A program made the translations under genes and the position numbers. Below are positions 8,958 through 24,043 of a DNA stretch of 64,000 bases, one piece after another (the first letter of the stretch is position 1; each line of letters starts with the position of its first letter). The DNA is from Candidatus Doudnabacteria bacterium (lineage in GTDB: Bacteria; Patescibacteriota; Doudnabacteria; UBA920): the NCBI GenBank assembly GCA_023245895.1, contig JAHFJJ010000002.1, positions 3,348-67,347 of the forward strand, given 5' to 3'. Under the pieces are notes generated by a model, which saw nothing but the letters and a program-made list of their open reading frames with translations, was not told where the DNA came from and searched no databases.

Positions 8958-11075
8958 CTAAATTTGCCTTCGCTTATCAATCTCCTTTCGCAAAAAACCT
9001 AACGCGTAGGGCAGGGCAGTAGCCGGTTTATCTGTGGAAAATGCAAAAATATTCTTGTTTTTATCTTTCAAAGGTTCAATATAGGAAGCGGTTACGGCCT
9101 CGGCTTCTTCCTGGTCATCGCCGTATCCGATTATTAAAAAAATAACCTGGCCGTCTTCCTCAATTTGCTGCATAACCGGGGCTATGCCCTCGCGGTTGCC
9201 TTGGCCGTCCGTAAACATAATAATTATTTTGATGACGTTATCTTTATTCAAGGCTAAAGCTTCGTGGACTTGCTTAACCGCGGCCACTTCGTCAGTACCG
9301 CCGCCGACTTGCGATAAGCGGTCTACAATCTTAATTTCTTTTTCGTCGCTCAAACGCTCTTCCAGCTTACTGACGCGCTCCGCCGCGGTTGAGTATTTAG
9401 TTACGCCGACCTGGAAAGGCTGCTCTTCGTCCGGGATAAGCAGGTTTTCCGCTTCCAGGTCTTTTAAAACCAGTTTGAAACTCTCCACAATAATAACGCC
9501 CATATCGGTGGACTTTTCAATCTTTTCGCCAAACATGGACTCCGAGGTGTCGTAGAGCAGTTCAAGCTGGGTTTGCAAAAATTGCGGATTGCGCACGAGC
9601 CTCATTTTGGTATCGGGGTCAAGCTCGCCGGTTAAAATTGCGGCTACGTGCTCATATTCCAAGCCCGGCACAATTTCGCCTTCGCGCTTGAGGTATTCAA
9701 TTTTTTTGCGTCTGTCGTCTAAAAATATTTCTGCCAAAACCGCGGCAGTAGACATAATTTCCGAAGGGTATTTTTCTTTGGTCCGCTCCCAGCTTTCTAT
9801 AGATTCCTGGCGGACTTGCATGCCTTCGGCCAGGCCTCTTTGGCGGCGCGCGCGGTCTAAGTCCCGCAAGGCTTCTGCCCGCGCCGCAAGCGCGTCCGCG
9901 CCGCGGTCGTCCTTAGGCGGGGCTACTGGAACTTTAGGCCCCTCTTTGCCCAGTATGCCCTCCAGTTCTTTCATTGCCTCGCCAAACTTTTCCCCATCCT
10001 CTTTGGAAGGCGCCTGGCTGGCATATTCTTTAGCTGCTTCTTCCAGTTCTTTGAGCAACTGGTTTTTTAGTTCTTCAATTTCTGCTTTGGTCAAAGGCAC
10101 GTCCGAAGTATCCCTGCCGGGCTTACCCGGCTTGCCGCCTTTGCCTTTTTGCCCTTCGCCTTTTTGTTTTTGCCGCTCTTCTTTTCGCTTCTCCAGCTCG
10201 GCAGTCATCAGCTTAAGGTACTCCGGCAGCCAGACTTGCTCGTAAGCCTGCATTTTACGCTCTAGACTGCGTTTTTGTTCGCCCTCTTTGGCAAAATAGG
10301 TGTAAGCCTGCCAATCCATGGTTGTGGACAGGGCTCGGCTGTCAATAATCCTGCGGAACGATTTATACACATCATCATCCAATTTTTTTCCAACCTCGGG
10401 GTCTTCATTAAAACGGTGCCTTAAAATAGACTGCAAAAGCTGTTGGGGTTTGGAATAATTTTTATATGTCTCCGGCGGCTTGTCCTCGGTATTAAGCGCG
10501 CGCACCGCGTTGCGGATTATAGTATAAGGCCGCCTGCCGGCAAAGGACTCCAGCCAAACATCAGCCACGGCATTATTGACATTGCCGTGAACCGCCCCTA
10601 AAAAGCGCTGTTCAGCGTTTGCGTCCCCTCTATATGCCTCGGGTATGGGCACATGTTTTAGGTTGCCAAGTAGCCTGTCCTGCAGTTCAGTAACTTCCGG
10701 AGCGTGGTGGAAAGCTTCGTGGTAAAAAAATCCTTTAGCCTCTGCTGGCTGCCAGGGCTCTACTCCAAATTCAGGCGCGCCGGTCGCGTGGATGGGATTA
10801 TAATAAATGGTTTTAGTGTTCAAGTTCGTATAACCGGACTTTAACACGCCTGTCTGGCGGAATTCCTGTTCAAGCGCCGGGTCCGGCCGGAACGAAAACC
10901 CGCCCGAAGCGCTGGAAAGCATTTTTAAATGCTCCGGGCTAATGACCTTTTCCATTTCCAAAGGCGGCCGTCCCGGTTTTTTTTCGCCCTTCCCATCCGG
11001 CGCGTCTGGAGGAAGCGGCGGTTGGTTTTGGCCCATTTCGTATTGTGCTGATTGCTTTTCGGATTTTTCGCTCAT
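8958..11075 (-). CDS. vWA-domain protein with an N-terminal HExxH (putative metallopeptidase) region, the MoxR-partner type
   Basis: 705 aa. N-terminal FFYHEAFHH holds the HExxH motif. The C-terminal vWA has the MIDAS motifs DTSES (DxSxS), GGGTD and FTDGQGN. A central Lys/Glu-rich low-complexity linker contains GKPGKPG. Confidence 0.8.
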   Translation of the reverse strand: MSEKSEKQSAQYEMGQNQPPLPPDAPDGKGEKKPGRPPLEMEKVISPEHLKMLSSASGGFSFRPDPALEQEFRQTGVLKSGYTNLNTKTIYYNPIHATGAPEFGVEPWQPAEAKGFFYHEAFHHAPEVTELQDRLLGNLKHVPIPEAYRGDANAEQRFLGAVHGNVNNAVADVWLESFAGRRPYTIIRNAVRALNTEDKPPETYKNYSKPQQLLQSILRHRFNEDPEVGKKLDDDVYKSFRRIIDSRALSTTMDWQAYTYFAKEGEQKRSLERKMQAYEQVWLPEYLKLMTAELEKRKEERQKQKGEGQKGKGGKPGKPGRDTSDVPLTKAEIEELKNQLLKELEEAAKEYASQAPSKEDGEKFGEAMKELEGILGKEGPKVPVAPPKDDRGADALAARAEALRDLDRARRQRGLAEGMQVRQESIESWERTKEKYPSEIMSTAAVLAEIFLDDRRKKIEYLKREGEIVPGLEYEHVAAILTGELDPDTKMRLVRNPQFLQTQLELLYDTSESMFGEKIEKSTDMGVIIVESFKLVLKDLEAENLLIPDEEQPFQVGVTKYSTAAERVSKLEERLSDEKEIKIVDRLSQVGGGTDEVAAVKQVHEALALNKDNVIKIIIMFTDGQGNREGIAPVMQQIEEDGQVIFLIIGYGDDQEEAEAVTASYIEPLKDKNKNIFAFSTDKPATALPYALGFLRKEIDKRRQI

Positions 11076-11140
11076 ATGCTATTATACTTAAATTTTTTAA
11101 TTTTCGGTACTTCGTTAAGTTTACTATGTATATCTCATTT

Positions 11141-11947
11141 TTAAAACTTTTTTGATTCAGGGATTTTAGAAGCGGCAATGCCTTGGTCTCGTTCTGGCAT
11201 TACCAATTCCAAACCCTCATCACCTATTTTAATTTCTTGAGCGGCTAAAATTTTCAAGCTCCTTGCAAGTTTAATAAAATTAAACCAATCATCAGCGTCT
11301 CTATATTCCCCAAGTTTCCTCTTCATTTTTTTCCAGGTTTTTTGGTCCGGTTGACAGTCAATTGGTACGCTTAAAAGTTTAATACGCGCCGCGAATTCAA
11401 CATACTCTTCCAGGTTCGAGGTTCGCTTTTCTTCCAATTCCATTTTCATGCCTTCAATCACCCGCTTATCTATACCCAGTTCCGCATCGGGTTTGAACAA
11501 CTTTAAACTCCCCGCCTCATAAGCAAAGTTCCAAAATTTATTGGCTGAACGAAGCGCCTGATTTTTGGACCTTTTTATGCTTCTTACTCCTGCGGCTACG
11601 GCTTTTTTTATAATCTCCTGGTCTGCGCTTATTTTAAGCACCCTTAAACAAGCTAAAAAACCTACATTTTCATAGGAACCGAAATCGGTGGTGGATTTTT
11701 GTTTTAACATTGCTTCTAATCCCCGGCGCCAGCTGTCGGTTAATTGGAATTTAATATTGGGATCCAGAATTTTTAAACTTAGCATATGATCTACGCTACC
11801 TGAGCTTTGGGAAAATGATTGCATTGCCCGCCAGTCTTCCTGCGTGACTTCAGTAGCGGTGTCAAAAGTTCCCGCAGGCCTTTCCTGCTCAACGCTGAAA
11901 TTTTTTATATTCAGTTCTTCCGCCGGAATTCGCGTTTCAATAGCCAT
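11141..11947 (-). CDS. tandem-array paralog 13 (most distal) of the 'M-A/S-I-E-x-R-I ... K-x-F' family
   Basis: 268 aa. Starts MAIETRIPAEELNIKNF and ends KIPESKKF. Confidence 0.8.
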   Translation of the reverse strand: MAIETRIPAEELNIKNFSVEQERPAGTFDTATEVTQEDWRAMQSFSQSSGSVDHMLSLKILDPNIKFQLTDSWRRGLEAMLKQKSTTDFGSYENVGFLACLRVLKISADQEIIKKAVAAGVRSIKRSKNQALRSANKFWNFAYEAGSLKLFKPDAELGIDKRVIEGMKMELEEKRTSNLEEYVEFAARIKLLSVPIDCQPDQKTWKKMKRKLGEYRDADDWFNFIKLARSLKILAAQEIKIGDEGLELVMPERDQGIAASKIPESKKF

Positions 11948-11951
11948 AAAA

Positions 11952-12815
11952 TTAAAACTTTTTTACTTCGGGCAGATCTTGGGTTTTAGCCCCAACTTTA
12001 GGCTCAGGCATTTTTATTTTTAAACCCGCTTCCGTAACCCTAACCTCCTCGGCCGCAAGAATACCTGCATCGGCAATAAGCACAACAGCCTCTCTTATAT
12101 TCCCGTCGCGCAGGTAATCGCTGATTGTCGTTCTAATCCCATCCCAGGCTTTGGCCGTTACCCTTATTTCTTTTAGTACATCGGGCGCGCCGACTTTTAA
12201 CAGCATTGCGTAATTAGTAAAATTAGCCCACTCCTCCGCCTGGCCGTAATCTTTTACAGACTGCACCATTTCCAAATCCGGGTCAAGGACTTCTTCCCGC
12301 AGGTCCAAAGGCATTTTATTTGGGTACAGTACTTTTAGCGCAATTTGTGTTTCAATTTGGTTCGCCGATGTGTCGAGGCTATTTTCTTTAGCCATTTCCC
12401 ATAAACCTTCGCCGTCTATGCCGTATTGGGAAAATTTGTCAGGCGCAAAAATTTTCAGGACAGCCGCATCCTGAACCGCATAGCCCAGTACGTCGACGTC
12501 GCATAATTCCCCATCGTCCACAAATCTAGCATAATTCTTCCAAAATTGTTTTTCCACAATTTCCTGGCATTTTTCGGCTACTTCTTTAATTTTTTCCGGG
12601 TTCATTTGCAGTAAAACGGTTAAAGCCCAGGCGGGGTAGTCTTCTGTTTCAGCATATTTTGAAGAATTATATTTTTCCAAATAATCTTTAATTTGCTTCC
12701 ACTCCTCTTCTTTGACATCGCGGATCGGATCAAATTCAACAGCCATCTCCAGCCTGTCAATGCTAAAATCCCTAATATTGAGTTCTTGGGTATTGATTCT
12801 TTCTCCGATGGCCAT
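11952..12815 (-). CDS. tandem-array paralog 12
   Basis: True start MAIGERINTQELNIRDF (ATG at 12813-12815); the ORF track extends it to 12944. Ends PEVKKF. Confidence 0.8.
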   Translation of the reverse strand: MAIGERINTQELNIRDFSIDRLEMAVEFDPIRDVKEEEWKQIKDYLEKYNSSKYAETEDYPAWALTVLLQMNPEKIKEVAEKCQEIVEKQFWKNYARFVDDGELCDVDVLGYAVQDAAVLKIFAPDKFSQYGIDGEGLWEMAKENSLDTSANQIETQIALKVLYPNKMPLDLREEVLDPDLEMVQSVKDYGQAEEWANFTNYAMLLKVGAPDVLKEIRVTAKAWDGIRTTISDYLRDGNIREAVVLIADAGILAAEEVRVTEAGLKIKMPEPKVGAKTQDLPEVKKF

Positions 12816-12816
12816 A

Positions 12817-13659
12817 TTAAAAATTTTTAGTTTTAGGAACCGGGGGCGTTTCCAGGATTTTTGGTTTTGGCTTGCTTTGCAGGTGGAGTCCCGATTGGTT
12901 AATTTCAATTTGGTCTGCTGAAATAATCGCAAGTTCACACGCAAAATCCAACTGGTCTTCAGGCGGCATGCTATGAAACTTTGTTTTTATTTCTATCCAC
13001 TCGGTTTCGTCCACAGCCTGTAAGTCAAACTTGCCAGGCAAAATAACGCGCAGGACGGCCAGTTGGCTTACCAAACTCCGCCAGGACTTTTTAGAGCGGC
13101 TTAATTTAATTGAACCTTGCAACTCCGGCAAAAAGTCTTTGGCTAATTTTAGCTTGTTGTTAGGCGTTAGGATTTTTAGGTTTTTATAGACTTCCTGGGT
13201 CAGACTGCCTGAGCCGACGCCTGCACAAAATTCAATTGCTTTATTTCTCGCGGCTAGTGGCAGTAAAAAATCCGGCATAATTTTTTTAATGGAGTATGCC
13301 GCGCGGATGAGCGTATCGGTGGTAGCGGCAGTCTCCCCGTTGGAATTTTTTTCAACCAGATATTCCCAGGTTTTTTCCAGCCCTTCTCTTAATTTCGTCA
13401 TTTGACCAGAGGACAGCCTTTTTAAAGTTTCCGCCTTCAAGAAACATAAATTGCCTAAGTTTTTTAGACGGTGGGGAACAACACTGCCTGAGGCAAGCCA
13501 GGGTAAATCTTCGGCAGCTAAATTTTCAAAAACTTTCCACTCCCGCTCGTAAATATCTTTTTTCGGGTCAAAGCCCGCGGTGTTGCCGGCTTGCTCTCTC
13601 TCGATGCTCAAACCTTTAATATTTAATTCTTCCCTAGGAATTCTATATTCAATAGGCAT
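12817..13659 (-). CDS. tandem-array paralog 11
   Basis: Starts MPIEYRIPREELNIKGL and ends PVPKTKNF. Confidence 0.8.
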   Translation of the reverse strand: MPIEYRIPREELNIKGLSIEREQAGNTAGFDPKKDIYEREWKVFENLAAEDLPWLASGSVVPHRLKNLGNLCFLKAETLKRLSSGQMTKLREGLEKTWEYLVEKNSNGETAATTDTLIRAAYSIKKIMPDFLLPLAARNKAIEFCAGVGSGSLTQEVYKNLKILTPNNKLKLAKDFLPELQGSIKLSRSKKSWRSLVSQLAVLRVILPGKFDLQAVDETEWIEIKTKFHSMPPEDQLDFACELAIISADQIEINQSGLHLQSKPKPKILETPPVPKTKNF

Positions 13660-13661
13660 AT

Positions 13662-14447
13662 TTAAAAGTTTTTAGTTTGCGGGACAGGTTGCGTGCTGGT
13701 GAGCGGCACTTGTTCTTCCGCCATAACCAATTCCAGCCCCTTGTCTGTAATTTTTACTTCTTTGGCGGCTAAAATTGACATGCTATAGGCAAGCATAAGG
13801 CTGTCAAGGTCCGTTTGGACTGTTTTTTGGAGGGTTGTTTTCATTGCTTTCCAGTCAGCTTTGCTTATTGCAGTCTTGGCAAATTCTTCCGGAAACAAAA
13901 TTTTTTCCCTGGCCGAGTAGGAAGCAAATAACCTGGGGGCGTGTAATTGTTTATCGGGCTCAAATTTCATATGCTGGAGCCACATACCGGCCTTTTCCGG
14001 AAACAGGATTTTCATATTTTTTGCCATTTCCCTGTAAGTTTGGTCCTTTTTAGCCAATCTTGTGTCGTGAAGCTTTTGAATAATCTTGCCTAAATAATTG
14101 TCCAGGTTTTTTGATTTAACCACTTCCGGCCATAATTGTTTAATGGTAGCGCCCAGTGAGGCAACGTCATACCATTGGTTTCGTCTTATGGCCTCGGAAA
14201 GGTCGCGGTCAGCCGCGTTTTTTTCTTGTTCCTGCGCGGGCAAAGCGCCGGGCTGCATGGTCCTAAGTCGGGCCAAGTAAGTATAGCCGCCTCTAGAAAG
14301 ACCATTAATAGCCAATTTAATTTTCCGCCATTGTTGCGGACTCAAATCCCGCGCGGGGTTAAACACCGCCCGGGTTTCCGCCCTATGCTCGGTGTGGAAG
14401 CTTTTAATATTCAAGTCTTGTTGTGGAATTCGTTGTTCTAAGGACAT
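13662..14447 (-). CDS. tandem-array paralog 10
   Basis: True start MSLEQRIPQQDLNIKSF; ends PVPQTKNF. Confidence 0.8.
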   Translation of the reverse strand: MSLEQRIPQQDLNIKSFHTEHRAETRAVFNPARDLSPQQWRKIKLAINGLSRGGYTYLARLRTMQPGALPAQEQEKNAADRDLSEAIRRNQWYDVASLGATIKQLWPEVVKSKNLDNYLGKIIQKLHDTRLAKKDQTYREMAKNMKILFPEKAGMWLQHMKFEPDKQLHAPRLFASYSAREKILFPEEFAKTAISKADWKAMKTTLQKTVQTDLDSLMLAYSMSILAAKEVKITDKGLELVMAEEQVPLTSTQPVPQTKNF

Positions 14448-14448
14448 A

Positions 14449-15279
14449 TTAGAAGTTTTTAATTTGGGGGATTTCTGGAGCTTTTTGCATAGTATTTTTT
14501 TCAGGCATAACAATTTCCAGGCCGTTGTCGCCAATTTTTGCTTCTTTGGCGCCAAGAATGGTCATTTCTTTTAATTTATAGCACGTGTAATAAAAGTCCC
14601 CATGAATAAGGCTGGATTCAACTGACTGCTTAAAATTTTTTTTCATCTCTTTCCAGTCGCCTGGGCCTATAACCAAGGCGTCCGGATAGCTCATTTTTAA
14701 GCTGGCGGCATCATTCCTAATAAGCTCCCAATATTTTTCCCGCTTTGCCTTTTGTGTTTTAAAATCAGCTAATATAATGTCTTTTGGTACCATATATTCT
14801 GGAGTAACTTCATCCGGAAATAGGATTTTCAAATAACAGTAAGTACGGGGAGAAAAGTTGTTTCTGATAGGGTTTAATTTTATTTTTTGCCATAAAGGGG
14901 CTAGTTTGGCTGTTAGGTTTTCAGCAGCAAAAGTTTCGGGGTCCAGCCTCTTGAGTTCAGCGGCGTCGACAAAAGGGTCGGTAATACTTTGCCCGGGCTC
15001 TTCTGCCTTTAGCAAGTCTTTTGTAAATTTTGATATTATCCTTTGCCTGCAAACTTCAGCCATATCCGGGAACAGTTCAGGATTAATCCCTTTTAAGAAT
15101 GTTAAAGTTCCTATTGGCAGTGCTTGGCTGTCGGCTGTTAAAATAAACTCTCTTAACGCCTTCCATTGCTCGGGAGTAACCTCTTCCATGGGATTAAACT
15201 CGATATTTACTCCCCGCTGTTCCAGGCTGAACTCCCTGATATTCAGTTGTTCGGTATTTATCCGTTGGTCTAAGGACAT
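14449..15279 (-). CDS. tandem-array paralog 9
   Basis: True start MSLDQRINTEQLNIREF; ends PEIPQIKNF. Confidence 0.8.
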   Translation of the reverse strand: MSLDQRINTEQLNIREFSLEQRGVNIEFNPMEEVTPEQWKALREFILTADSQALPIGTLTFLKGINPELFPDMAEVCRQRIISKFTKDLLKAEEPGQSITDPFVDAAELKRLDPETFAAENLTAKLAPLWQKIKLNPIRNNFSPRTYCYLKILFPDEVTPEYMVPKDIILADFKTQKAKREKYWELIRNDAASLKMSYPDALVIGPGDWKEMKKNFKQSVESSLIHGDFYYTCYKLKEMTILGAKEAKIGDNGLEIVMPEKNTMQKAPEIPQIKNF

Positions 15280-15280: not shown

Positions 15281-16093
15281 TTAAAAATTTTTAATTTTTG
15301 GCAGGGTTGATTTAGTTTCGGCTTCAAAAGCCGCGGGTCGGGTTATTTCCAAACCATTTTCGGTAATCTCTATTGCAGGGGCTGTGGCAATAAGCAAGTT
15401 AAAGGCATCTCCCACAAGTTCAGAAGGATGAGTTTTGTTTTTCTTTAGGTGTTTTTTCATTGCTTGGACAAATTCTGGCCCAAGCTCGGGCTTAAACCAA
15501 GGGTCAATAGTTCTAATACAGGCGCCATATTTAAAAATATCTGAAACCGAGGAGCCTGGCCTGGCTTTTAGAGCATCAAAGTCTTCCTTAAAAATTACAT
15601 CCGGCCCCGCATCTAAGTTGGGCAGGAAAATATAATCGTTTAATTGCAAACCGGTTATTTTCATATCGGCAAAAACTTGCATACTGTAGAAAGGGGCGTC
15701 GCTTTTCAGAAATTTATCTATTGAGTTAACTTCTTTCGCCGTAAAATTAAATTCATAGTTTATTGGCTTTAAAATTTTTAGTGCCGCTAGCGTATCGAAA
15801 AATTGATCCCAATGCTCTAACATCCTGCTTTCTCTCACTACCGCCATAGTTCTCTCTTCCCATTCAGGGTCGAAGTTAATTGCGATTGCCGGATTTAAGA
15901 GCTTTATTTTAGAAGCAATCCGGGCGGAGTCATCGGGCTTAAATTCTTTATTTTCCTCCATTACCTGCAAAAGATCGTCCCACTGCTCAGCACTAATATC
16001 CCGCTCTGGGTCAAAGCTCTCGTTATTCCACTCCTGAAAATTAAAGTCTTTAATATTTAGTTGTTCGGTATTTATTCGTTTGTCTAAGGACAT
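15281..16093 (-). CDS. tandem-array paralog 8
   Basis: Starts MSLDKRINTEQLNIKDF and ends LPKIKNF. Confidence 0.8.
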   Translation of the reverse strand: MSLDKRINTEQLNIKDFNFQEWNNESFDPERDISAEQWDDLLQVMEENKEFKPDDSARIASKIKLLNPAIAINFDPEWEERTMAVVRESRMLEHWDQFFDTLAALKILKPINYEFNFTAKEVNSIDKFLKSDAPFYSMQVFADMKITGLQLNDYIFLPNLDAGPDVIFKEDFDALKARPGSSVSDIFKYGACIRTIDPWFKPELGPEFVQAMKKHLKKNKTHPSELVGDAFNLLIATAPAIEITENGLEITRPAAFEAETKSTLPKIKNF

Positions 16094-16888: not shown

Positions 16889-17731
16889 TTAGAAATTTTT
16901 AATTTTCGGAATTGCCGGCGTTGCCTGGCTTATTTGGGCGTTGTTTGACAGCTCCATGCCGTGGTTTGTAAATTTCACCTCTTTGGCCGCCATAGTAGCC
17001 AGCCATTCGGCTAAGTTTATATACTGTAAACAGTCATGGCCGCTTTGGCAATTGTCTAATTTTTCAAAAAGTTGGGTTTTCATAGCTTCCCAGTTTTTTG
17101 CGGTAATTTTTACTTTCGCGAATTCTTCCGGAAACAAAATTTTCAACAGGGCCGCGCTTTTGCAAAACATATACCAATTGCCGCCTTTATTTTGCGCCAT
17201 ATCTTGTTTCAATAGCGAAACGTCGTTGTCCTTCAACAGGTCTTTTTCTTGGCCAGGGAAAAGAATTTTAAAATAAAGAACGTTGTCTAAATCTACTGTA
17301 CCCCGGCCTGTTATTTTAGGCTTCCTTAAGGCTTCGGCCATTCGTTCGCGATATTGCTCGGCCAATGCTTGCGAAAACCTTTCCGGAAATAAGGTTTTCA
17401 TTTCGGCAAAATTACCAAGCAAATTATCATAGCCCATTTCTCCCCGCTCGCAATGGCGTAAAATGGTTTTGGCGAATTTATCCATCTTCTGCCATTTTTT
17501 ATTGTCAGATTTTTCAAATAGTCTTTTTGGTTCAATCACCTGCAAACTTGCCAAATAAAGGTCAACATTTTCTTTTCGCGCAGACCGTTCCATTTTATCC
17601 CATTGCGCTTTGCTCAAATCCCTTACCGGATCAAAAGGTACATCCTTAGAAGACTCCGCCGAGGGCAACTGCTCCAGGTTTAACGAGCTAATATTCAATT
17701 CTGCCGGGTTAACCCGCTGTTCTATGGACAT
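16889..17731 (-). CDS. tandem-array paralog 6
   Basis: True start MSIEQRVNPAELNISSL; ends PAIPKIKNF. Confidence 0.8.
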   Translation of the reverse strand: MSIEQRVNPAELNISSLNLEQLPSAESSKDVPFDPVRDLSKAQWDKMERSARKENVDLYLASLQVIEPKRLFEKSDNKKWQKMDKFAKTILRHCERGEMGYDNLLGNFAEMKTLFPERFSQALAEQYRERMAEALRKPKITGRGTVDLDNVLYFKILFPGQEKDLLKDNDVSLLKQDMAQNKGGNWYMFCKSAALLKILFPEEFAKVKITAKNWEAMKTQLFEKLDNCQSGHDCLQYINLAEWLATMAAKEVKFTNHGMELSNNAQISQATPAIPKIKNF

Positions 17732-17732
17732 A

Positions 17733-18530
17733 TTAAAATTTTTTAATTTCAGGAATACGCGAACCAAGTTCCGGTAATTTTTGTACTGCCGGCGACAGTT
17801 CCAGTCCCCTATTCGTAAATTTCAGCTCGCTCGCGGAAATAATAGCCATGTCCCTGGCCAAAGTTATGGCTTTGTCTAAATTCGTGCCTTTTAATTCCGC
17901 GCGCAAGTCTTGTTGCATTCCTTTCCAGGCATTGTCGCCGATGTTTTGAATATTAAAACGTCCAGGAAATAAAATCCGTAATGTGGCCATATCTACAGCT
18001 AAGCTTGGCCAATTTTTGAGTTTTTTTGAAAGACCAATGTTTAGGGTAATAGCAGTAAAATCTTCTTCGTTTACTTCCACTCTTTCAGGCAGCAACCTTT
18101 TCATTCGAGTAGCAAGGTCAAAATAAAGAGCGTCATTCCAATGCCTTAACGCAATGTTTTCCAAGTCCTCGCGGGCAATAAATTTTTCCCACTGGTCAGG
18201 CCATAACTGCCTAATTGACGCGGCGACATCCAAAAAAACCAGCTGGGCTTGAACGTGATTTACTTCCTTTACTCTCCTGGAAATCTGCTCGCTTAGTTCC
18301 GGGTTGGTTGCCGGATTGGGGAGGTTGGGAAAGCTTTCAGGCCTTATTAAGCGCAAATCCGCAATTCTTTCCCAGACATGGTAAGTTTGCTCTACTTCCT
18401 TCGCGTCTGCTTCCATGCGCCGCCAGTCGTCGGGTTTAATATCAAATTCCAGCAAGCCTTTTTCCGGAGTCTGGATATTAAAGTTCTTTATATTCAATTC
18501 TGCCGGGTTAACCAGCTGTTCTATGGACAT
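17733..18530 (-). CDS. tandem-array paralog 5
   Basis: Starts MSIEQLVNPAELNIKNF and ends RIPEIKKF. Confidence 0.8.
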   Translation of the reverse strand: MSIEQLVNPAELNIKNFNIQTPEKGLLEFDIKPDDWRRMEADAKEVEQTYHVWERIADLRLIRPESFPNLPNPATNPELSEQISRRVKEVNHVQAQLVFLDVAASIRQLWPDQWEKFIAREDLENIALRHWNDALYFDLATRMKRLLPERVEVNEEDFTAITLNIGLSKKLKNWPSLAVDMATLRILFPGRFNIQNIGDNAWKGMQQDLRAELKGTNLDKAITLARDMAIISASELKFTNRGLELSPAVQKLPELGSRIPEIKKF

Positions 18531-18531
18531 A

Positions 18532-19365
18532 TTAAAAATTTTTAATTTCGGGCGTCGGTGGAGTCGCGGTTTCTGATTGTTTTTTTGGCATCACCAACTC
18601 CAAGCCCTGCTCTGTAATTTTAATTTCCTGGGCGGCTATCATTGCAAGGTCGCGGATCATGCCGGCTTGGTCCACGCTTTTAGTCTTTCCCTGGGCCAAT
18701 AAAAACTTTAAATGACTTCGCCAAATTTCCCAGGTTTGGCAATCAACTTTTAACTTTTTGGCGTCATCCGGAAGCAAAGCCTTAAAGGCCGCAAAATACG
18801 CGAGTTTTAAGCTAAAATCATCAGCCATAACCTGTTGCAAGGGTTCATTTATAGGTTCTCCTTTTGCCAGAGTTTCCAACCAGGGATCTGTGGGTATTTT
18901 ATCTAAACTGAGTTCACCCGCCCGGTCGGGAAACAGAACCCTCATATCAATTAAAAATCCCGGACCTACGTCGCCTGATGCCAGCTGCTCATTTCCTTTA
19001 CGCCACAGTTTCGGGGCGGTTCTAAAAGTTAGCGGTTCAAATTTATCCGGAAAAAGTTGCTTAAACCCCGCGTATTCCGTAACCACGGAATACCAAAGGT
19101 TTTCGTCAATTAACCCTTGAATCCTCCTTTTAAAAATATCACCCTCCGGCACCGGAATATGGGTAAACTTATCCGGCCGTACTTGCCGAAGCACAGCCAG
19201 CATGCCATAAAAGGCGGGATTGTCAGATATGGTTTGGCTTAAAAGTTCCCAATCCCTTTCGCTCACGTCCCGCTTAGGATCAAATTCAACGCCGGCCTGC
19301 GGCTGTTCCAGGTTCAGTTCTTTTATATTCAATTCTTGCCGATCAATCCGTTTTTCTATGGACAT
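18532..19365 (-). CDS. tandem-array paralog 4
   Basis: True start MSIEKRIDRQELNIKEL; ends PTPEIKNF. Confidence 0.8.
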   Translation of the reverse strand: MSIEKRIDRQELNIKELNLEQPQAGVEFDPKRDVSERDWELLSQTISDNPAFYGMLAVLRQVRPDKFTHIPVPEGDIFKRRIQGLIDENLWYSVVTEYAGFKQLFPDKFEPLTFRTAPKLWRKGNEQLASGDVGPGFLIDMRVLFPDRAGELSLDKIPTDPWLETLAKGEPINEPLQQVMADDFSLKLAYFAAFKALLPDDAKKLKVDCQTWEIWRSHLKFLLAQGKTKSVDQAGMIRDLAMIAAQEIKITEQGLELVMPKKQSETATPPTPEIKNF

Positions 19366-19366
19366 A

Positions 19367-20203
19367 TTAAAAATGTTTAGCTTCCGGCAGCGGCGAGTCC
19401 GCTGTGAAATTTGTTTCCGGTAAAATAATAACTCCGCGTTCATCAATATGTGCGTCCGGGCAGGATAAAATTTTTAAATAACTTCCGACCCTCATCAGTT
19501 CGTAGGGAGCCCCCTGTTCTAGCCAAAATTTTTTAATGCCGCTCCAGTCTCGCGCTTTAATTAGGGGTTTTACATCCGGAGCCATTAACTTTAACGCTAC
19601 TGCTTTGGCTAAATCCGCACTTAAATGGAATTTTGAGTTGGGTGTTATAGCGAAAGATGTTTTTTTCATCTCCTCTATGGCTTTTTCCATAACTTGAGTC
19701 CATCGCATGCCTTTTAAATGCTGGGGAAAAACTTGCACCGCTTCCAAATGCTCATAGGGAAACGCAAGCGAACTTTCAATGCGGTCGTCAACCAGCTTCC
19801 AGTTCTCTTCCGAATTCCACTTTTTCCAAACATCGGTCCGCTCAGGAAACAGCCTTTTATATGCAGACGCGATACCTAAAAATTGCTGTACAGAAGGGCG
19901 GCTGCCTGTAGTCAGAGGCATTTCATTTGCCGCGGCTTCAAGAGCGCTGGCTAATTTTTCTGAAACTTGCGCATCGGGAAACAAAAATTTATAATTCGCC
20001 AAATAATCGGGCTTTTGCCCGAAAGCCGGCCTGCCTTCTTCCCAGTCACCGCTTATCCTAAGAAAGTTTTGCAGGCAGACCTCTCTGGTATTTTTTGGAA
20101 TTTCAACCTCGGGGTTAAATTTAAACCCGTCCACAGGCTCCTGTTCAAAGCTCAGCTCCTGGACTTTTAATTCGTTCGGGTCAATGCGTTTTTCAATGGC
20201 CAT
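19367..20203 (-). CDS. tandem-array paralog 3
   Basis: Starts MAIEKRIDPNELKVQEL and ends PLPEAKHF. Confidence 0.8.
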   Translation of the reverse strand: MAIEKRIDPNELKVQELSFEQEPVDGFKFNPEVEIPKNTREVCLQNFLRISGDWEEGRPAFGQKPDYLANYKFLFPDAQVSEKLASALEAAANEMPLTTGSRPSVQQFLGIASAYKRLFPERTDVWKKWNSEENWKLVDDRIESSLAFPYEHLEAVQVFPQHLKGMRWTQVMEKAIEEMKKTSFAITPNSKFHLSADLAKAVALKLMAPDVKPLIKARDWSGIKKFWLEQGAPYELMRVGSYLKILSCPDAHIDERGVIILPETNFTADSPLPEAKHF

Positions 20204-20204
20204 A

Positions 20205-21011
20205 TTAAAAATGTTTAGTTTCCGGAGGGCCGGTTTTGTTGTCAGTCTGCATTTCTGTTAAATTGCCCAACTCCAGGCCATTGTTTGTAACTTTTACTGT
20301 AGAAGCCGAGGCAATAACTGCGTTTACCGCATTTTCTGAAACCGGGAAAAGATCTGTTAATTCTGTCCCTGCCTTTAGTACTCCTTTTATAGCTTGGAAG
20401 TGTTTGGGTGTTAATTCAGGGTCAAAATTAGGTTTAACAATTCTCATACTGGCGGCGAAGCGGAATAGTTTTTCAATGGGCGCCTTCTCTTTCATTTCAG
20501 CCATGGTGGCTTCCAAAACACCCCAAAACTCCGGCGTAAGATATTTGTCCATAGGCAGGCCAATAATTTTTATTTCCGCTAAATGCAGCAATTGATAATA
20601 AGGTTCCATATTCGGGTCTGTCAGGAACACTTCTATAGACTCCGCTTCTTCCTGGCTGAATACAAATTTTTTTGAAGGCTGTAGAATCTTGATTGCTAAA
20701 GCTAGCGGTAAAAAGTCGCCCCACTCTTCGTCTTTTTTGTCAGTTTGTAATTCGTTTTCAATTTTAGTAAATTCTTCAGTCTCGATTTTTGGAGCTTCGT
20801 TTGGATACAAGATTTTGAGGTTTGCAGACATTAACGCGACATAATATCTACTACTTCCAGCCCTATAAGATTCTAAATCTCTAAACAAGCCCTGTTTTTG
20901 GCTTTGACTGAAGTCTCTTTTTGGATTAAAAAGGAAAGGCTGTTGCTTTTCGTTGAGGCTCAGTTCTTTGATATTCAGCCCTTCTTGGCTTATTCGTTTT
21001 CCAATAGGCAT
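20205..21011 (-). CDS. tandem-array paralog 2
   Basis: True start MPIGKRISQEGLNIKEL; ends GPPETKHF. Confidence 0.8.
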   Translation of the reverse strand: MPIGKRISQEGLNIKELSLNEKQQPFLFNPKRDFSQSQKQGLFRDLESYRAGSSRYYVALMSANLKILYPNEAPKIETEEFTKIENELQTDKKDEEWGDFLPLALAIKILQPSKKFVFSQEEAESIEVFLTDPNMEPYYQLLHLAEIKIIGLPMDKYLTPEFWGVLEATMAEMKEKAPIEKLFRFAASMRIVKPNFDPELTPKHFQAIKGVLKAGTELTDLFPVSENAVNAVIASASTVKVTNNGLELGNLTEMQTDNKTGPPETKHF

Positions 21012-21012
21012 A

Positions 21013-21876
21013 TTAAAAATGTTTAATTTGTGGGGCGTCAAATTTTGGCTTTCCGATGGGTGTAACCGGCATAACAAATTTAATCCTATTGTCTTCAACC
21101 ACAATGCGTTCCGCGGCCAAAGCTTGCAAAGTTGCCGCAACATTTAAAAATGTAGTCCAATTGCCCCTCTTCCGCCATCCTTCAAGGATGTCCCTTAGTT
21201 TTTTTACAGGCGGCAATTTCCCCTGCCAATGTGCGGCAAGTTCCGGGAAAGCGTACTTAATAGCGGCGGTTCTATTGATAAGCACGGAAGTTTCGTTTAA
21301 GTGTTTTTTGTTGTCACTATATTGTTTGTAAGCCCATTCCCAGGCAGTGGCACAAAACTGTTTTGCTTCTTCCGGCAGAGGTTCGGTCGGATAACAAATT
21401 GCGAAATTTTTAATTAACTTTACACCCTCATCAATCCAGTTGGTTGTCGTGTAATACAAAACGCTTTCTTTTAAAAGCTTAAATATTTCCGGGTTTTTTA
21501 AAATTTGCGCGCAATTCTGCGGGAACAAAATTTTCATCATCATTAGAGCCTCTGCTAGTTTTCCCGGTTTGCTTTCAGTTAAGTGTTGTTCTATTATAGT
21601 TTTTAAATTTTCTTCCTTAACAAAAGTTTTATTCTCATATGGAAAGTGCAAAAGCTGCGCGGGCGCCAAATAGTAGATGCTGGCGTACAAGTCATTTTCC
21701 GCTCTGGGCGCGCCGGAAGCTTTTTTAAAACTTACCAAAGACTCCAATATCCTGGTTTTGTCTGAATCTGTTATGTCGCGATTGGCATCAAATAAAATTT
21801 CAGTACTTTGGGAGCTTTCCAAAGATAAATCCTGAATTTTTATTTCTTGCGGATCAATCCGTGTTTCTATGGCCAT
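21013..21876 (-). CDS. tandem-array paralog 1 (first after the ATPase)
   Basis: True start MAIETRIDPQEIKIQDL (ATG at 21874-21876); ends DAPQIKHF. Confidence 0.8.
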   Translation of the reverse strand: MAIETRIDPQEIKIQDLSLESSQSTEILFDANRDITDSDKTRILESLVSFKKASGAPRAENDLYASIYYLAPAQLLHFPYENKTFVKEENLKTIIEQHLTESKPGKLAEALMMMKILFPQNCAQILKNPEIFKLLKESVLYYTTTNWIDEGVKLIKNFAICYPTEPLPEEAKQFCATAWEWAYKQYSDNKKHLNETSVLINRTAAIKYAFPELAAHWQGKLPPVKKLRDILEGWRKRGNWTTFLNVAATLQALAAERIVVEDNRIKFVMPVTPIGKPKFDAPQIKHF

Positions 21877-21919
21877 AGTCTTAAAAAACAAGCCGGAGTT
21901 TCCGCTCCGGCTCGTTAGG

Positions 21920-24043
21920 TTAAAATTGCTTTGCCGCGGGCACGAATTCGGTGGTGGCAAAACCCTGCAAACCGCGGATTTGCTTTATTATTTCTTCAAA
22001 ATCTTTTTTAGTGTCTTCCGAAGCCTTTTTGCGCTCATCATAAGCTTCCTGGCCAATATAGCCCATGATTTTGTCTTTTAATTTTTCGTCATCCATAAGA
22101 ATGCCTACGCTGGTAAGCATATCCACAACCGCTTTGGGGTTTTCACTGCCTTCAAATTGCTTGTAGCTTTCCACCATCACCTGGTAAACCGCTTCGTCAA
22201 AGGACATTTTGCTTGCCTGATAGAGCGGTTTTTTGTTTTTTGCGTCGCGGTAGAGAACAAGTTTTTCCCCAAGGTCCCGGATGGTACGGTAAGAAAGCGG
22301 AATCGTCTGCCTTTTGCCTTCCAAAAAAGAGCGTATTTTAGGAAAGGCTTCGTTAATTAAGGTGTAAAGTTTTCCTAAGTCTTCTTTAGAGCGCAAGAAT
22401 GTGCCGTCGGGGTTAGCCAGCGCGGAAAGCGACACCAACATTTCCTCTTTGCGTGGCGGGTAGGGAATTTCCATAACTTTGCCTTCGGCGCGCGAAGCCA
22501 AAGCTTCCGGGACTTCAAAGACACCATGCTTGCGTTCAATGTTGGCGGTAAAATACATCCTCCAATTATCGGGAATCGGAATACGCTCATCGTTATCCGC
22601 AAAATACCAATCCTCCCCGGGTTTGGCAGTTAAAAGCCCGTAAATTAAGCTCCAGTTTTTGTTTTTGTTAAATTCGTCCATTAGCACGCTGTCCCCCCGC
22701 CTTAGGGCCGCTGTAATAACCCCGTCGCGCCAGCCGTTCTTTTTGACAATATGCGCGAACTTTTTGGCCAACTCCCCGCGGAAAGCCGCCTCGGCCATGT
22801 TTACAACTTTGGTTTGTAAGTCGCGCAATTGCGGTACATCTGCTGCCTTGGTTTTTTCAGCTGCCTGCAAAGATTCCTGTATTTGGGCTATTGCTGTAAC
22901 AGCCGCCTCGTCCGGATTGAGATGCAAAGTTTCCCCAAGGAGCTTGCTGTGTTCGGAAACAAAATCCCTAAATTTTTCAGGATCCAGTCCTCGAAGGTCA
23001 TCGCTCAGCTTATTATAGTACTCAGTTGGGTCTTTAAATTCCAAAGATTTTGAACCGTAGAGCATGTAGCGGGTTACATCTTCGGACAAATCAAGATAAA
23101 CATAATTCCTGCCTTTTTCTTCCAGGTAATGGCGGACAAGCGTGGTCTTGCCCACGCCCGGAGGCCCAACTAAAACGCCGCCGACTGTGGTGCGCTGGTG
23201 CTGGGTTTCCCATTCATGGAGCATGTTTAAAGAATGGATGACGCTTTGCGTTTCCACTACATCTTCGCCTTCTGAAAATTGTTTTAAAACAGTTTCTATT
23301 TCTTCTTTGCCGGAAAAATACCTGACCATGGGGTCTTCCCACAGTTCCTCTATTTTAGCCCTGGCCGCGGCGAGTTCTTCTTGCAGCTGCTTTTTTGAAC
23401 GCGGAAGTTTGCGCTCTTTTTGAGTTTTAAATTCTTTTAAGGCGTTTACATACTCCTCTGATTCCTCATCAAAAATAGTTTTTAGCGCCTGTTCAATATT
23501 GTTGACATCGTCAGTTTGGACTTCGTCTGAAACCGACTGGCGCTGGCTTACGGCCTCGGCGCGGGCGTAAGAAATATCATCCAGGCCTTCGGCGCTGGCA
23601 AAGCTTGCCTGCTCAAGCAAGCCTGAAAGTTGGGTCGCGGTTTTAAGGCTATTTTTAAACTCTAAATAGTCAAGCTTCGAGCGGATGTATTCCCTATAGG
23701 CTTTTTCAAAAGACAGCTTTTCTTCGTCGCCCAGCCAGCCTTCAATTTCCGTTTTTTTGGCCTTATAATGTTGGGCGGCTAAAAATCTGTCATCGGCGCT
23801 TTTTGCAGACTTAACAATGCTCCTCAAATCCTGGGCTTGTTTTATCAAGAGCTGGAATTGTTCAATAGCTTTAAGGCGCAAATCACGTTCAAGTTCCGGG
23901 ACATTTTCCAAAGCTTGCTCGCGGGCTTCCCTTAAAACCCTATTTGCTTCAGGCTGTGTTTTTGTCTTTCTGCTTTCCTTTGCGGCGGCTTTTACTTCGG
24001 GCACTTCCCCACCCAAATGACGCGGCAATAGACGTTCGGGCAT
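21920..24043 (-). CDS. AAA+ ATPase (MoxR/AAA_5-like core with a long coiled-coil N-terminal region), first gene of the operon
   Basis: 707 aa. Walker A is GPPGVGKT and Walker B is DSVLMDEFNK, the DE-x-N-R/K signature of the MoxR/dynein-related clade. About 160 aa are inserted between the two Walker motifs. The C-terminus ends ...VPAAKQF, a K-x-F tail like that of the downstream paralogs. Confidence 0.8.
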   Translation of the reverse strand: MPERLLPRHLGGEVPEVKAAAKESRKTKTQPEANRVLREAREQALENVPELERDLRLKAIEQFQLLIKQAQDLRSIVKSAKSADDRFLAAQHYKAKKTEIEGWLGDEEKLSFEKAYREYIRSKLDYLEFKNSLKTATQLSGLLEQASFASAEGLDDISYARAEAVSQRQSVSDEVQTDDVNNIEQALKTIFDEESEEYVNALKEFKTQKERKLPRSKKQLQEELAAARAKIEELWEDPMVRYFSGKEEIETVLKQFSEGEDVVETQSVIHSLNMLHEWETQHQRTTVGGVLVGPPGVGKTTLVRHYLEEKGRNYVYLDLSEDVTRYMLYGSKSLEFKDPTEYYNKLSDDLRGLDPEKFRDFVSEHSKLLGETLHLNPDEAAVTAIAQIQESLQAAEKTKAADVPQLRDLQTKVVNMAEAAFRGELAKKFAHIVKKNGWRDGVITAALRRGDSVLMDEFNKNKNWSLIYGLLTAKPGEDWYFADNDERIPIPDNWRMYFTANIERKHGVFEVPEALASRAEGKVMEIPYPPRKEEMLVSLSALANPDGTFLRSKEDLGKLYTLINEAFPKIRSFLEGKRQTIPLSYRTIRDLGEKLVLYRDAKNKKPLYQASKMSFDEAVYQVMVESYKQFEGSENPKAVVDMLTSVGILMDDEKLKDKIMGYIGQEAYDERKKASEDTKKDFEEIIKQIRGLQGFATTEFVPAAKQF

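What the first reader, a model, noticed from the sequence alone, without database searches (positions are those of the whole stretch)
8958..24043. A 15-kb operon: AAA+ (MoxR-like) ATPase, 13 tandem diversified paralogs, and a vWA/HExxH protein, a candidate novel multi-client ATPase system
All 15 genes lie on the minus strand with TAA-N-ATG junctions, so this is one transcription and translation unit. The first gene is a 707-aa AAA+ protein with Walker A GPPGVGKT and Walker B VLMDEFNK, a MoxR/AAA_5-type signature, and a long coiled-coil N-terminus. The last gene pairs an HExxH motif (YHEAFHH) with a vWA MIDAS domain (DTSES...GGGTD...FTDGQGN). MoxR ATPases and vWA partners are known to work as chaperone and activation pairs, for example RavA-ViaA, CbbQ-CbbO and NorQ-NorD. 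Between them sit 13 paralogous ORFs of 261-287 aa that I cannot assign to any known family. That arrangement suggests an ATPase-vWA machine acting on a diversified set of client, cargo or effector proteins.
Basis: partly seen in the sequence, partly recalled or inferred. Interest (0 to 1): 0.92.

Follow-up and report, generated by a model that had tools for sequence, protein, structure and literature searches.

The report
ATPase-vWA operon with hypervariable paralog array
A 15-gene island in a tiny groundwater (CPR/Patescibacteria) bacterium encodes a motor ATPase, a metal-site adaptor fused to a protease-like domain, and 13 fast-evolving sister proteins that share the same short head and tail tags; this looks like an undescribed machine for inter-organism conflict.

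Summary
Window 8958-24043 (minus strand) holds an AAA_5/MoxR-type ATPase, 13 tandem paralogs and a protein with an invariant HExxH domain plus a complete MIDAS vWA domain. Twelve of the 14 junctions are TAA + 1-4 nt + ATG.

New findings:
- The trio is co-conserved in all 9 loci examined. Arrays hold 9 to at least 23 paralogs, and gene order varies.
- The paralog family is large (1768 clusters at 50% identity), matched no Pfam, NCBIfam, PADLOC, PHROG or PDB-sequence family, and was found only in Patescibacteriota.
- Paralog cores are about 16% identical. They turn over almost completely between genomes whose ATPase and vWA proteins are 84% identical.
- Every paralog keeps an N-terminal motif ([IL]-N-I-x-x-L-x-x-E-E-P) and a C-terminal tail (P-E-x-[KR]-x-F-COOH). 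Most ATPases carry the same tail.
- The paralog model is an all-helical repeat, probably an alpha/alpha toroid.
- The operon lies in a 16-kb insertion after tRNA-Thr(GGT). It was not found in the 18 same-genus genomes searched.

Best reading: an ATP-driven MoxR-vWA-zincin module engages interchangeable, hypervariable binding modules through shared terminal handles, in a conflict role. The mechanism is inferred, not shown.

The parts
24103..24132 (-). Promoter-like site (TTGCAA-17-TATAAT) about 60 nt upstream of the ATPase start
   Evidence: Consensus scan, 10 of 12 matches. This is a pattern match only.
21920..24043 (-). AAA_5/MoxR-type AAA+ ATPase, 707 aa. It has an N-terminal extension of about 260 aa, Walker A at 293-300, Walker B D456-E457, and the C-terminal tail P-A-A-K-Q-F.
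   Evidence: Pfam AAA_5 4e-11; GvpN-like 7.7e-8; 70 homolog clusters; invariant residues; motifs.
21013..21876 (-). Paralog p1 (287 aa)
   Evidence: AF2 model mean pLDDT 81.4, pTM 0.78.
20205..21011 (-). Paralog p2 (268 aa)
19367..20203 (-). Paralog p3 (278 aa)
18532..19365 (-). Paralog p4 (277 aa)
17733..18530 (-). Paralog p5 (265 aa)
   Evidence: Its first 45 nt are 91% identical to p6, but the core is only 20% identical at the amino-acid level.
16889..17731 (-). Paralog p6 (280 aa)
16095..16886 (-). Paralog p7 (263 aa)
15281..16093 (-). Paralog p8 (270 aa)
14449..15279 (-). Paralog p9 (276 aa)
13662..14447 (-). Paralog p10 (261 aa)
12817..13659 (-). Paralog p11 (280 aa)
11952..12815 (-). 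Paralog p12 (287 aa)
11141..11947 (-). Paralog p13 (268 aa)
10146..10958 (-). N-terminal zincin-like domain of the vWA protein (residues about 40-310). Invariant residues are H119, E120, H123, H124, N168, D172, W174 and E176.
   Evidence: Alignments A2 and A4. AF2 pLDDT is mostly 80-95. The Atlas structure search matches the N-domain of phage and haloarchaeal VWA/CobT_C proteins at TM 0.60-0.68.
8964..9821 (-). C-terminal vWA domain with a complete MIDAS motif (D509, S511, S513, T594, D623)
8876..8911 (-). Terminator-like hairpin (16-bp stem, U-rich 3' side), 47 nt after the vWA stop codon
   Evidence: RNA fold of 8860-8960, -28.7 kcal/mol, z -2.36.
24262..24337 (-). tRNA-Thr(GGT), which marks the upstream edge of the 16-kb insertion
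   Evidence: ARAGORN. Synteny with three same-genus genomes.
8111..8722 (-). NYN-domain gene inside the inserted segment. Whether it belongs to the system is uncertain, and it is not conserved beside the system in other loci.
   Evidence: Pfam NYN 7e-24. Only 28-34% identical to same-genus NYN genes.

Best explanation
This is a self-contained, horizontally mobile, three-component system found only in Patescibacteria. It has three parts.

(1) An AAA_5/MoxR-type ATPase.

(2) A partner protein whose C-terminal midasin/NorD-like MIDAS vWA domain is fused to an N-terminal HExxH (gluzincin-like) domain.

(3) An array of 9 to at least 23 soluble helical-repeat proteins of about 270 aa.

The paralog cores diverge extremely fast. 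Every paralog nevertheless keeps the same N-terminal linear motif and the same C-terminal tail, which ends in [KR]-x-F-COOH.

Proposed mechanism (inferred). The two terminal motifs are docking handles by which the ATPase/vWA-zincin module recognises every paralog. Because the ATPase carries the same tail, and no other genes accompany the trio, the vWA-zincin protein is the likeliest common receptor. ATP hydrolysis then loads, remodels or releases the paralogs, and the zincin domain may trim them or whatever they hold. The hypervariable cores are binding surfaces directed at a fast-evolving opponent, either phage or host cell. On this view the paralogs are interchangeable specificity modules of one ATP-driven conflict machine.

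Shown: the architecture, the family assignments, co-conservation, the shared motifs, the hypervariability and the island context.

Inferred: who binds whom, proteolysis, and the conflict role.

For: Co-conservation. ATPase, paralog array and vWA-zincin protein occur together in 9 of 9 loci, in three different gene orders and with no other shared gene.

Handles. Across 211 family members the C-terminal positions are P(-6) 100%, [KR](-3) 100% and F(-1) 99%. In the N-terminal motif, N is 84%, I 89%, L 86% and E 80% conserved. About 45 of 70 ATPase homologs end with the same tail. In this genome the tail is essentially confined to the operon, 14 of 16 occurrences. One natural in-frame ATPase-paralog fusion exists.

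Hypervariability. Core identity averages about 16% both within and between genomes. The ATPase and vWA protein of the window and L011 are 61% and 58% identical, yet the best paralog core match is 24.6%. Between L025 and L014 the ATPase and vWA protein are both 84% identical, but the best paralog matches are 22-36%, with one at 53%. The highest within-genome core identity (30-54%) exceeds the highest between-genome identity (21-26%), which indicates birth-and-death evolution. The 5' ends are homogenised: p5/p6 share 91% nucleotide identity over 45 nt while their cores are 20% identical at the amino-acid level.

Accessory status. The operon lies in a 16-kb insertion after tRNA-Thr(GGT). The paralog family was not found in 40 relatives, including 18 same-genus genomes. 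The ATPase was found in 3 of 400 genomes sampled from the phylum. The census gave 18 carriers among 36,145 genera, all Patescibacteriota.

Location. No TM segment or signal peptide is present in any of the 15 proteins.
Against: No experiment or computation here shows binding, ATP-dependent remodelling or proteolysis.

The paralog cores have no recognisable ligand-binding or catalytic signature.

Translational coupling of all paralogs suggests stoichiometric co-production, which fits a multi-subunit structure at least as well as a sensor or adaptor repertoire.

The published relatives of the MoxR + metallopeptidase-vWA dyad (jumbo phages, and ATV p618/p892) are linked to assembly of structures, not to target recognition.

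No PADLOC defence model matches, and no known defence genes flank the system consistently.

The conserved Lys in each helical repeat could be structural only.

Hypervariability might partly reflect weak constraint on a repeat scaffold rather than positive selection. dN/dS could not be measured.
Confidence: 0.4

Rival explanations
1. Assembly machine. The paralogs are subunits of a cytoplasmic or exported heteropolymeric structure. They join head to tail through the conserved N-terminal strand-like motif, the C-terminal beta-hairpin and the KxF tail. The MoxR-vWA pair is the assembly chaperone and the zincin domain is the maturation protease, as proposed for jumbo-phage virions and shown for tail development in Acidianus two-tailed virus.
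For: Iyer et al. 2021 (PMC7824862) describe the same dyad, MoxR plus an N-terminal metallopeptidase-vWA protein, in group 2.2 jumbo phages. They propose virion assembly with proteolytic processing, and they cite the ATV MoxR-vWA pair as required for tail assembly.

The Atlas structure search finds the N-domain fold in phage VWA/CobT_C proteins at TM 0.60-0.61.

The TAA-N-ATG coupling of all 13 genes fits stoichiometric subunits.

The N-terminus (residues 1-24) is unstructured in the monomer model, and a two-stranded C-terminal hairpin (E257-260, E265-268) is left free, which would allow strand exchange.

Only the termini are conserved, as expected if they are the only interfaces.

The ATPase shares the tail and could nucleate or cap chains.
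Against: A defined structure rarely tolerates near-complete turnover of its subunits between genomes whose ATPases are 84% identical, or arrays ranging from 9 to at least 23 members.

No virion, secretion or membrane gene accompanies the system in any locus.

There are no PHROG or viral fold matches for the paralogs.

The paralogs lack signal peptides, so a surface structure would need an unknown export route.
Confidence: 0.25
2. Effector arsenal. The paralogs are delivered into host or competitor cells. CPR bacteria are episymbionts. The conserved termini are export or sorting signals, and the ATPase-vWA pair is the sorting or unfolding platform.
For: A conserved N-terminal signal combined with a hypervariable body is typical of effector families. 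The system is accessory and island-borne. pI ranges from 4.6 to 9.6 among the paralogs.
Against: No translocon, membrane protein or secretion ATPase is encoded in any of the 9 loci. None of the 15 proteins has a hydrophobic segment. AAA_5/MoxR ATPases are not known as secretion motors (established knowledge). No toxin or enzyme signature is conserved in the cores.
Confidence: 0.12
3. Ordinary MoxR-vWA housekeeping chaperone or chelatase (CobS-CobT, NorQ-NorD, CbbQ-CbbO type) for cofactor insertion, with the paralogs being unrelated cargo of the island.
For: Twelve of 31 vWA homologs weakly match CobT_C (best E 5.5e-5). A weak phrog_249 'porphyrin biosynthesis' hit was found for the ATPase. NorD is among the structural matches.
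Against: PF06213 (CobT) gave no match in the genome even at E 10 or in the hmmscan. No CobN, NOR or Rubisco gene lies in the operon. The paralogs are always present with the pair, and the ATPase shares their tail. The distribution is patchy and island-borne.
Confidence: 0.03

Closest known systems
Jumbo-phage MoxR AAA+ ATPase plus (N-terminal metallopeptidase-vWA) chaperone/cochaperone dyad (Iyer et al. 2021, PMC7824862), and the ATV p618/p892 MoxR-vWA pair
   Same: The two-gene core is the same: an AAA_5/MoxR ATPase with a vWA partner that carries an N-terminal zincin-like domain. The N-domain fold is shared with phage VWA/CobT_C proteins (Atlas TM 0.60-0.61). A role in handling other proteins is predicted for both.
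   Different: This system sits on a chromosomal island of a CPR bacterium with no virion genes. It is always accompanied by an array of 9 to at least 23 hypervariable paralogs with shared terminal motifs, which is not described for the phage dyads. tblastn found no similarity to 50,697 phage records, and there was no PHROG match. The ATPase is about twice the usual MoxR size.
Midasin/Rea1 (AAA_5 ring plus MIDAS domain that grips the UBL domains of Rsa4 and Ytm1)
   Different: ATPase and MIDAS are separate proteins here, and there is a single AAA module rather than six. The clients are not UBL proteins. A zincin domain is fused to the MIDAS protein.
Bacterial MoxR-vWA chaperone pairs (NorQ-NorD, CbbQ-CbbO, RavA-ViaA) and CobS-CobT/BchI-BchD chelatases
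   Different: Those pairs serve one conserved metalloenzyme client. Here the clients are many, hypervariable and non-enzymatic. No CobT N-domain, CobN, NOR or Rubisco is present.
vWA-MoxR-VMAP ternary conflict systems (Kaur, Burroughs, Iyer, Aravind 2020, PMC7159879)
   Same: A MoxR-vWA core is coupled to diversifying partner proteins that are recruited through shared short adaptor modules. A role in biological conflict is predicted for both, and both show a patchy, laterally transferred distribution.
   Different: Those systems are enriched in multicellular bacteria, and the paper's statistical test of association with multicellularity left CPR genomes out. They use VMAP proteins and EAD adaptors with enzymatic effectors. 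Here the third component is a tandem array of helical-repeat proteins with linear terminal motifs. No PADLOC model matches.
Substrate-receptor or adaptor superfamilies of ATP-driven machines (F-box proteins, alpha-SNAP/NSF, HbYX-tailed proteasome activators). This is a functional analogy only.
   Same: A small conserved docking element is combined with a variable repeat domain. A C-terminal aromatic tail motif is shared by different proteins that dock on one receptor.
   Different: There is no sequence or demonstrated fold relationship. The analogy rests on inference.

Membership tests
AAA_5 / MoxR-type AAA+ ATPases (Pfam PF07728) | Significant match to the family model above its curated cut-off | tested here: met
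   PF07728 scored 43.5 bits against a cut-off of 22, E 4e-11, and was the best family. PF07728 is precomputed on nearly all 70 homologs. There is a partial GvpN match at 7.7e-8.
AAA_5 / MoxR-type AAA+ ATPases (Pfam PF07728) | Intact Walker A (GxxGxGKT) and Walker B (hhhhDE) motifs with conserved downstream Arg/Asn residues | tested here: met
   GPPGVGKT lies at 293-300 and VLMDEF at 453-458. G293, P295, G296, G298, K299, T301, D456, E457, N501 and R518 are invariant in 30 sequences.
AAA_5 / MoxR-type AAA+ ATPases (Pfam PF07728) | Compact single-module protein of about 300-350 aa | tested here: not met
   The protein is 707 aa, with an N-terminal extension of about 260 aa and 157 residues between Walker A K299 and Walker B D456. 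It is therefore a divergent, enlarged member at best.
AAA_5 / MoxR-type AAA+ ATPases (Pfam PF07728) | Placement in the MoxR clade by phylogeny or by structural inserts (helix-2 insert, pre-sensor-1 hairpin) | not tested
A PDB profile search gave only weak P-loop matches (Lon and ClpB, E at least 4e-4).
MIDAS-type vWA domains that partner AAA_5 ATPases (midasin MIDAS, NorD, CbbO) | vWA (Rossmann-like) fold | tested here: met
MIDAS-type vWA domains that partner AAA_5 ATPases (midasin MIDAS, NorD, CbbO) | Complete MIDAS motif DxSxS...T...D | tested here: met
   D509, S511, S513, T594 and D623 are invariant in 31 homologs.
MIDAS-type vWA domains that partner AAA_5 ATPases (midasin MIDAS, NorD, CbbO) | Physical docking on the ATPase ring and metal-mediated grip on a client carboxylate | not testable with these tools
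   This needs biochemistry or cryo-EM.
Zincin (HExxH) metallopeptidases | HExxH motif on a helix, conserved across the family | tested here: met
   H119, E120 and H123 (plus H124) are invariant in 31 of 31 sequences. The motif lies on helix 110-122 after a small beta-sheet in the AF2 model.
Zincin (HExxH) metallopeptidases | Third zinc ligand and zincin fold | tested here: inconclusive
   Invariant N168, D172, W174 and E176 lie on the next long helix, so E176 is a candidate gluzincin ligand. Atlas TM to anthrax-lethal-factor-like peptidases is only 0.31. The N-domain has no Pfam or PDB sequence match, and it could not be folded alone.
Cobaltochelatase CobS-CobT | CobT N-terminal domain (PF06213) | tested here: not met
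   No match was found in the whole genome at E up to 10, and none in the hmmscan of 31 homologs.
Cobaltochelatase CobS-CobT | CobT_C-type vWA (PF11775) | tested here: inconclusive
   Twelve of 31 homologs match, best E 5.5e-5. The window protein itself does not.
Jumbo-phage MoxR + metallopeptidase-vWA dyad | Two-gene architecture: AAA_5 ATPase plus a vWA protein with an N-terminal metallopeptidase domain | tested here: met
   The architecture is described in PMC7824862.
Jumbo-phage MoxR + metallopeptidase-vWA dyad | Detectable homology to phage members | tested here: inconclusive
   There was no tblastn hit in 50,697 phage records and no PHROG hit for the vWA protein. The Atlas structure search does match phage VWA/CobT_C proteins over residues 40-298 at TM 0.60-0.61.
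Jumbo-phage MoxR + metallopeptidase-vWA dyad | Encoded in a virus genome among virion genes | tested here: not met
   The system is a chromosomal insertion between tRNA-Thr and a methyltransferase gene. No PHROG structural family was found among the operon proteins scanned.
Known anti-phage defence systems (PADLOC-DB v2) | Match of any component to a defence-system model | tested here: not met
   Only weak P-loop-level hits were found for the ATPase (best 8.8e-5, a 48-residue stretch). Nothing matched the vWA protein or six paralogs.
vWA-MoxR-VMAP ternary systems (Kaur et al. 2020) | Presence of a VMAP protein and EAD-type adaptor domains | not tested
   No VMAP or EAD model was available. The paralogs have no Pfam match.

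The most novel reading that the evidence does not exclude
The arrays form a germline-encoded recognition repertoire. Dozens of rapidly diversifying helical-repeat binders plug, through universal head and tail tags, into a single AAA+/MIDAS/zincin engine that remodels or destroys whatever they capture. This would be an innate-immunity-like or host-manipulation machine specific to the ultra-small CPR bacteria, with no described counterpart.
Probability: 0.3. Interest if true: 0.9.

Novelty: new variant of a known kind. Interest (0 to 1): 0.78.

Why it matters
CPR/Patescibacteria have genomes of about 1 Mb, yet this organism spends 15 kb (1.3% of its DNA) on the system, and relatives carry more than 23 paralogs. 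That implies a strong benefit.

The system joins a well-understood engine (an AAA_5 motor with a MIDAS adaptor, as in midasin, NorQD and CbbQO) to a feature not described before: a large, fast-turning-over family of client proteins marked by universal terminal tags.

If the tags are docking handles, the system offers a simple, testable model of how one ATPase serves many interchangeable partners. It may also reveal how uncultivated episymbionts fight phages or hosts.

The paralog family (at least 1768 clusters at 50% identity) has no family in any of the libraries searched here and deserves a family definition of its own.

Tried and rejected
- Complex prediction with the vWA protein (residues 40-705) and paralog p1 scored 0.00 and gave no verdict. 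This is neither support nor evidence against binding.
- The search for related loci on genome contigs used generic P-loop patterns and returned only unrelated AAA proteins, so it was useless.
- count_across_genera neighbour tests read low: fewer than 3 of 18 carriers and fewer than 3 of 6. The cause is probably divergent queries and few carriers. The contig-level evidence was used instead.
- Sequencing runs: four DNA runs from one groundwater study hold the stretch, and no RNA holder is listed. The laid contigs were identical, low-depth fragments, so they say nothing about expression or strain variation.
- No att-like direct repeat of 10 nt or more was found between the tRNA region and the far end of the island.
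- Foldseek against PDB and BFVD gave only generic helical-repeat hits for the paralog (E at least 7.5e-3, TM at most 0.37). The ESM Atlas gave no usable hit.
- A search for longer fused relatives of the paralogs found none, which is weak evidence.
- The N-domain of the vWA protein matched nothing in Pfam or PDB by sequence.
- The idea that the conserved C-terminal K-x-F merely reflects an A/T-rich initiation region for the next gene was rejected. The tail is kept in p13 and in the ATPase, where the next start is 65 and 43 nt away, and in homologs that use Arg codons.
- Literature searches found no description of this array system.

Full report
**Observation**

The region is as described. Fifteen minus-strand ORFs fill window 8958-24043:
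- an ATPase of 707 aa (21920-24043);
- 13 paralogs of 261-287 aa (11141-21876);
- a 705-aa protein (8958-11075).

All internal stops are TAA. Twelve of 14 junctions are TAA + 1-4 nt + ATG. The ATPase-to-p1 gap is 43 nt and the p13-to-vWA gap is 65 nt.

A promoter-like site lies at 24131-24103. A 16-bp terminator-like hairpin at 8911-8876 follows the last gene. A single transcript is therefore plausible, but it has not been shown.

**The ATPase**

Pfam's best family is AAA_5 (43.5 bits against a cut-off of 22). NCBIfam gives a partial GvpN-like match. Walker A, Walker B and many downstream residues are invariant in 30 homologs.

The protein is atypical for MoxR. It has about 260 extra N-terminal residues and 157 residues between the Walker A lysine and the Walker B aspartate. 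Placement within the MoxR clade was not tested.

**The vWA protein**

The N-terminal domain (residues about 40-310) carries invariant H119-E120-x-x-H123-H124 and invariant N168, D172, W174 and E176. It has no Pfam or PDB sequence match. The ESM Atlas finds the same fold at the N-terminus of phage and haloarchaeal VWA/CobT_C proteins (TM 0.60-0.68).

Iyer et al. 2021 (PMC7824862) described this same dyad, MoxR plus a vWA protein with an N-terminal metallopeptidase, in group 2.2 jumbo phages. They proposed virion assembly with processing, citing the ATV MoxR-vWA pair. Sequence-level homology to phage records was not detectable.

**The paralogs**

They match nothing in Pfam, PADLOC, NCBIfam, PHROGs or PDB sequences. 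A profile of the 13 finds 1768 cluster representatives at 50% identity, 1182 of them at E 1e-10 or better.

The AF2 model of p1 (pLDDT 81.4, pTM 0.78) shows these features:
- a disordered N-terminus (residues 1-24);
- 14 helices;
- a C-terminal two-stranded hairpin;
- a disordered tail.

Across 211 members the conserved features are as follows:
- an N-terminal motif [IL]-N-I-x-x-L-x-x-E-E-P;
- F-D-P-E-x-[DE]-I;
- five repeats of A-x-x-x-K-[IL]-L-x-P spaced 41-46 residues apart;
- the hairpin (…I-T-D-x-G-L-E…);
- the tail L-P-E-x-[KR]-x-F-COOH, with P, K/R and F at 99-100%.

None of the 15 proteins has a hydrophobic segment, and paralog pI ranges from 4.6 to 9.6.

**Co-conservation**

Nine loci were examined: the window, L011, L012, L014, L015, L025, L026, L027 and L028. 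All carry an ATPase homolog next to paralog arrays. Most arrays hold 9 to at least 23 genes; L028, where the contig ends, shows a single copy.

The vWA-zincin gene lies in the fetched locus in seven of the nine. In the other two it is inferred to lie on the same contig, from matching contig lengths.

Gene order varies: ATPase-array-vWA, ATPase-vWA-array, and divergent arrays. No other gene is shared between loci, so the trio is the system.

**Shared handles**

About 45 of 70 ATPase homologs end with the same P-x-x-[KR]-x-F tail. K versus R at position -3 agrees with the paralogs of the same locus in the six loci where both can be read. This is a small and non-independent sample.

In the whole genome the tail occurs in 16 of 2148 ORFs, 14 of them in this operon. 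One natural in-frame ATPase-paralog fusion exists.

**Hypervariability**

N-termini are 41-72% identical within a genome, but cores average about 16% both within and between genomes.

| Comparison | ATPase identity | vWA identity | Paralog identity |
|---|---|---|---|
| Window vs L011 | 61% | 58% | best core match 24.6% |
| L025 vs L014 | 84% | 84% | best matches 22-36%, one pair at 53% |

The highest within-genome core identity (30-54%) exceeds the highest between-genome identity (21-26%). This indicates local duplication followed by fast divergence.

Neighbouring genes p5/p6 and p8/p9 share 91% and 87% nucleotide identity over their first 45 nt, but only 20% and 15% core amino-acid identity. 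This suggests homogenisation of the 5' handle.

**Distribution and context**

The genome is 1.14 Mb in 41 contigs and comes from groundwater.
- The paralog family was not found in 40 relatives, including 18 same-genus genomes.
- The ATPase was found in 3 of 400 other genomes sampled from the phylum.
- A census of 36,145 genera found 18 carriers, all Patescibacteriota.
- Named homologs come from the Parcubacteria group and from Daviesbacteria.

Three same-genus genomes keep the order rpsB-tsf-TPR-tRNA-Thr(GGT). In one of them the methyltransferase ortholog follows the tRNA by about 260 bp. In the window, 16 kb (the operon plus an NYN gene) lies between the two. No att repeat was found.

**Interpretation**

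The AAA_5 + MIDAS logic is established for midasin, NorQD and CbbQO: the MIDAS site grips a client carboxylate while the ring applies force. The following steps are inference.

The universally conserved termini of otherwise unconstrained paralogs are best explained as docking handles for the two conserved partners.

The ATPase shares the tail and no other gene accompanies the trio. The vWA-zincin protein is therefore the likeliest common receptor. This is an argument by elimination, not a demonstration. The one complex prediction gave no verdict.

Fast birth-and-death evolution, island location and patchy spread point to a conflict function. I favour interchangeable binding or specificity modules serving one ATP-driven remodelling and proteolytic engine (confidence 0.4).

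The main rival (0.25) is a chaperone-protease that assembles a variable heteropolymer through exchange between the N-terminal strand and the C-terminal hairpin. The phage and ATV precedents and the translational coupling support it.

An exported effector arsenal (0.12) lacks any translocon. A housekeeping chelatase or chaperone (0.03) is contradicted by the missing CobT domain and the absence of a client enzyme.

**Novelty**

The two-gene core is a known kind and has been described in phages. Its obligate coupling to a large hypervariable, tag-bearing paralog array, and its restriction to CPR bacteria, appear undescribed (literature searches). I rate it a new variant of a known kind, with a real chance that it is something more.

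Noticed in passing
window 24262-24337 (-) and 24354-24389: tRNA-Thr(GGT) lies directly upstream of the operon. It is preceded by a perfect 16-bp GC-rich hairpin, probably the terminator of the TPR gene. The DNA after this tRNA differs in each of three same-genus genomes, so this is a variable hotspot.
   Followed up: partly
window 8111-8722 (-): An NYN-domain (predicted RNase) gene lies inside the inserted 16 kb, between the operon's terminator and the conserved methyltransferase gene. It is only 28-34% identical to NYN genes of same-genus genomes and is not found beside the system in other loci.
   Followed up: partly
P0007 (ATPase homolog, 1009 aa, 4.8-kb Logan contig): This is an in-frame fusion of the ATPase to a paralog. 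The ATPase sequence stops at the proline of its tail and runs straight into the paralog's L-N-I-K-S-L-T-L-E-E-P motif. It could be a real Rosetta-stone fusion or an assembly error.
   Followed up: partly
P0193 (915 aa), P0203 (575 aa), P0211 (523 aa): These ORFs contain two or three paralog domains in tandem. P0193 also has an unassigned N-terminal region of about 370 aa with no Pfam match.
   Followed up: no
G012:C3:5053-5784 (same-genus genome): The ortholog of the TPR gene (window 24398-25156) contains one in-frame TGA.
   Followed up: no
window 47852-48298 (+) (G000:C19:51199-51645) and G000:C9:5657-6082: These are the only two ORFs outside the operon that end in P..[KR].F. They are short (142-149 aa) and may be chance or non-coding.
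   Followed up: no
L011:2190-3389, L014:13347-15423, L026:3555-3956: Genes near the system in other loci include a RimK-like ATP-grasp gene just upstream of the ATPase (weak Pfam hit), a PemK toxin and an M10 peptidase, and a PhageMetallopep gene. None of these recurs between loci.
   Followed up: no
vWA homologs, linker between the zincin and vWA domains (A2 consensus, about residues 320-345 of the window protein): A conserved acidic motif, V-P-L-T-K-E-E-E-Q-E-L, follows a low-complexity K/Q/G-rich stretch. It is a possible internal MIDAS or ATPase-docking element.
   Followed up: no
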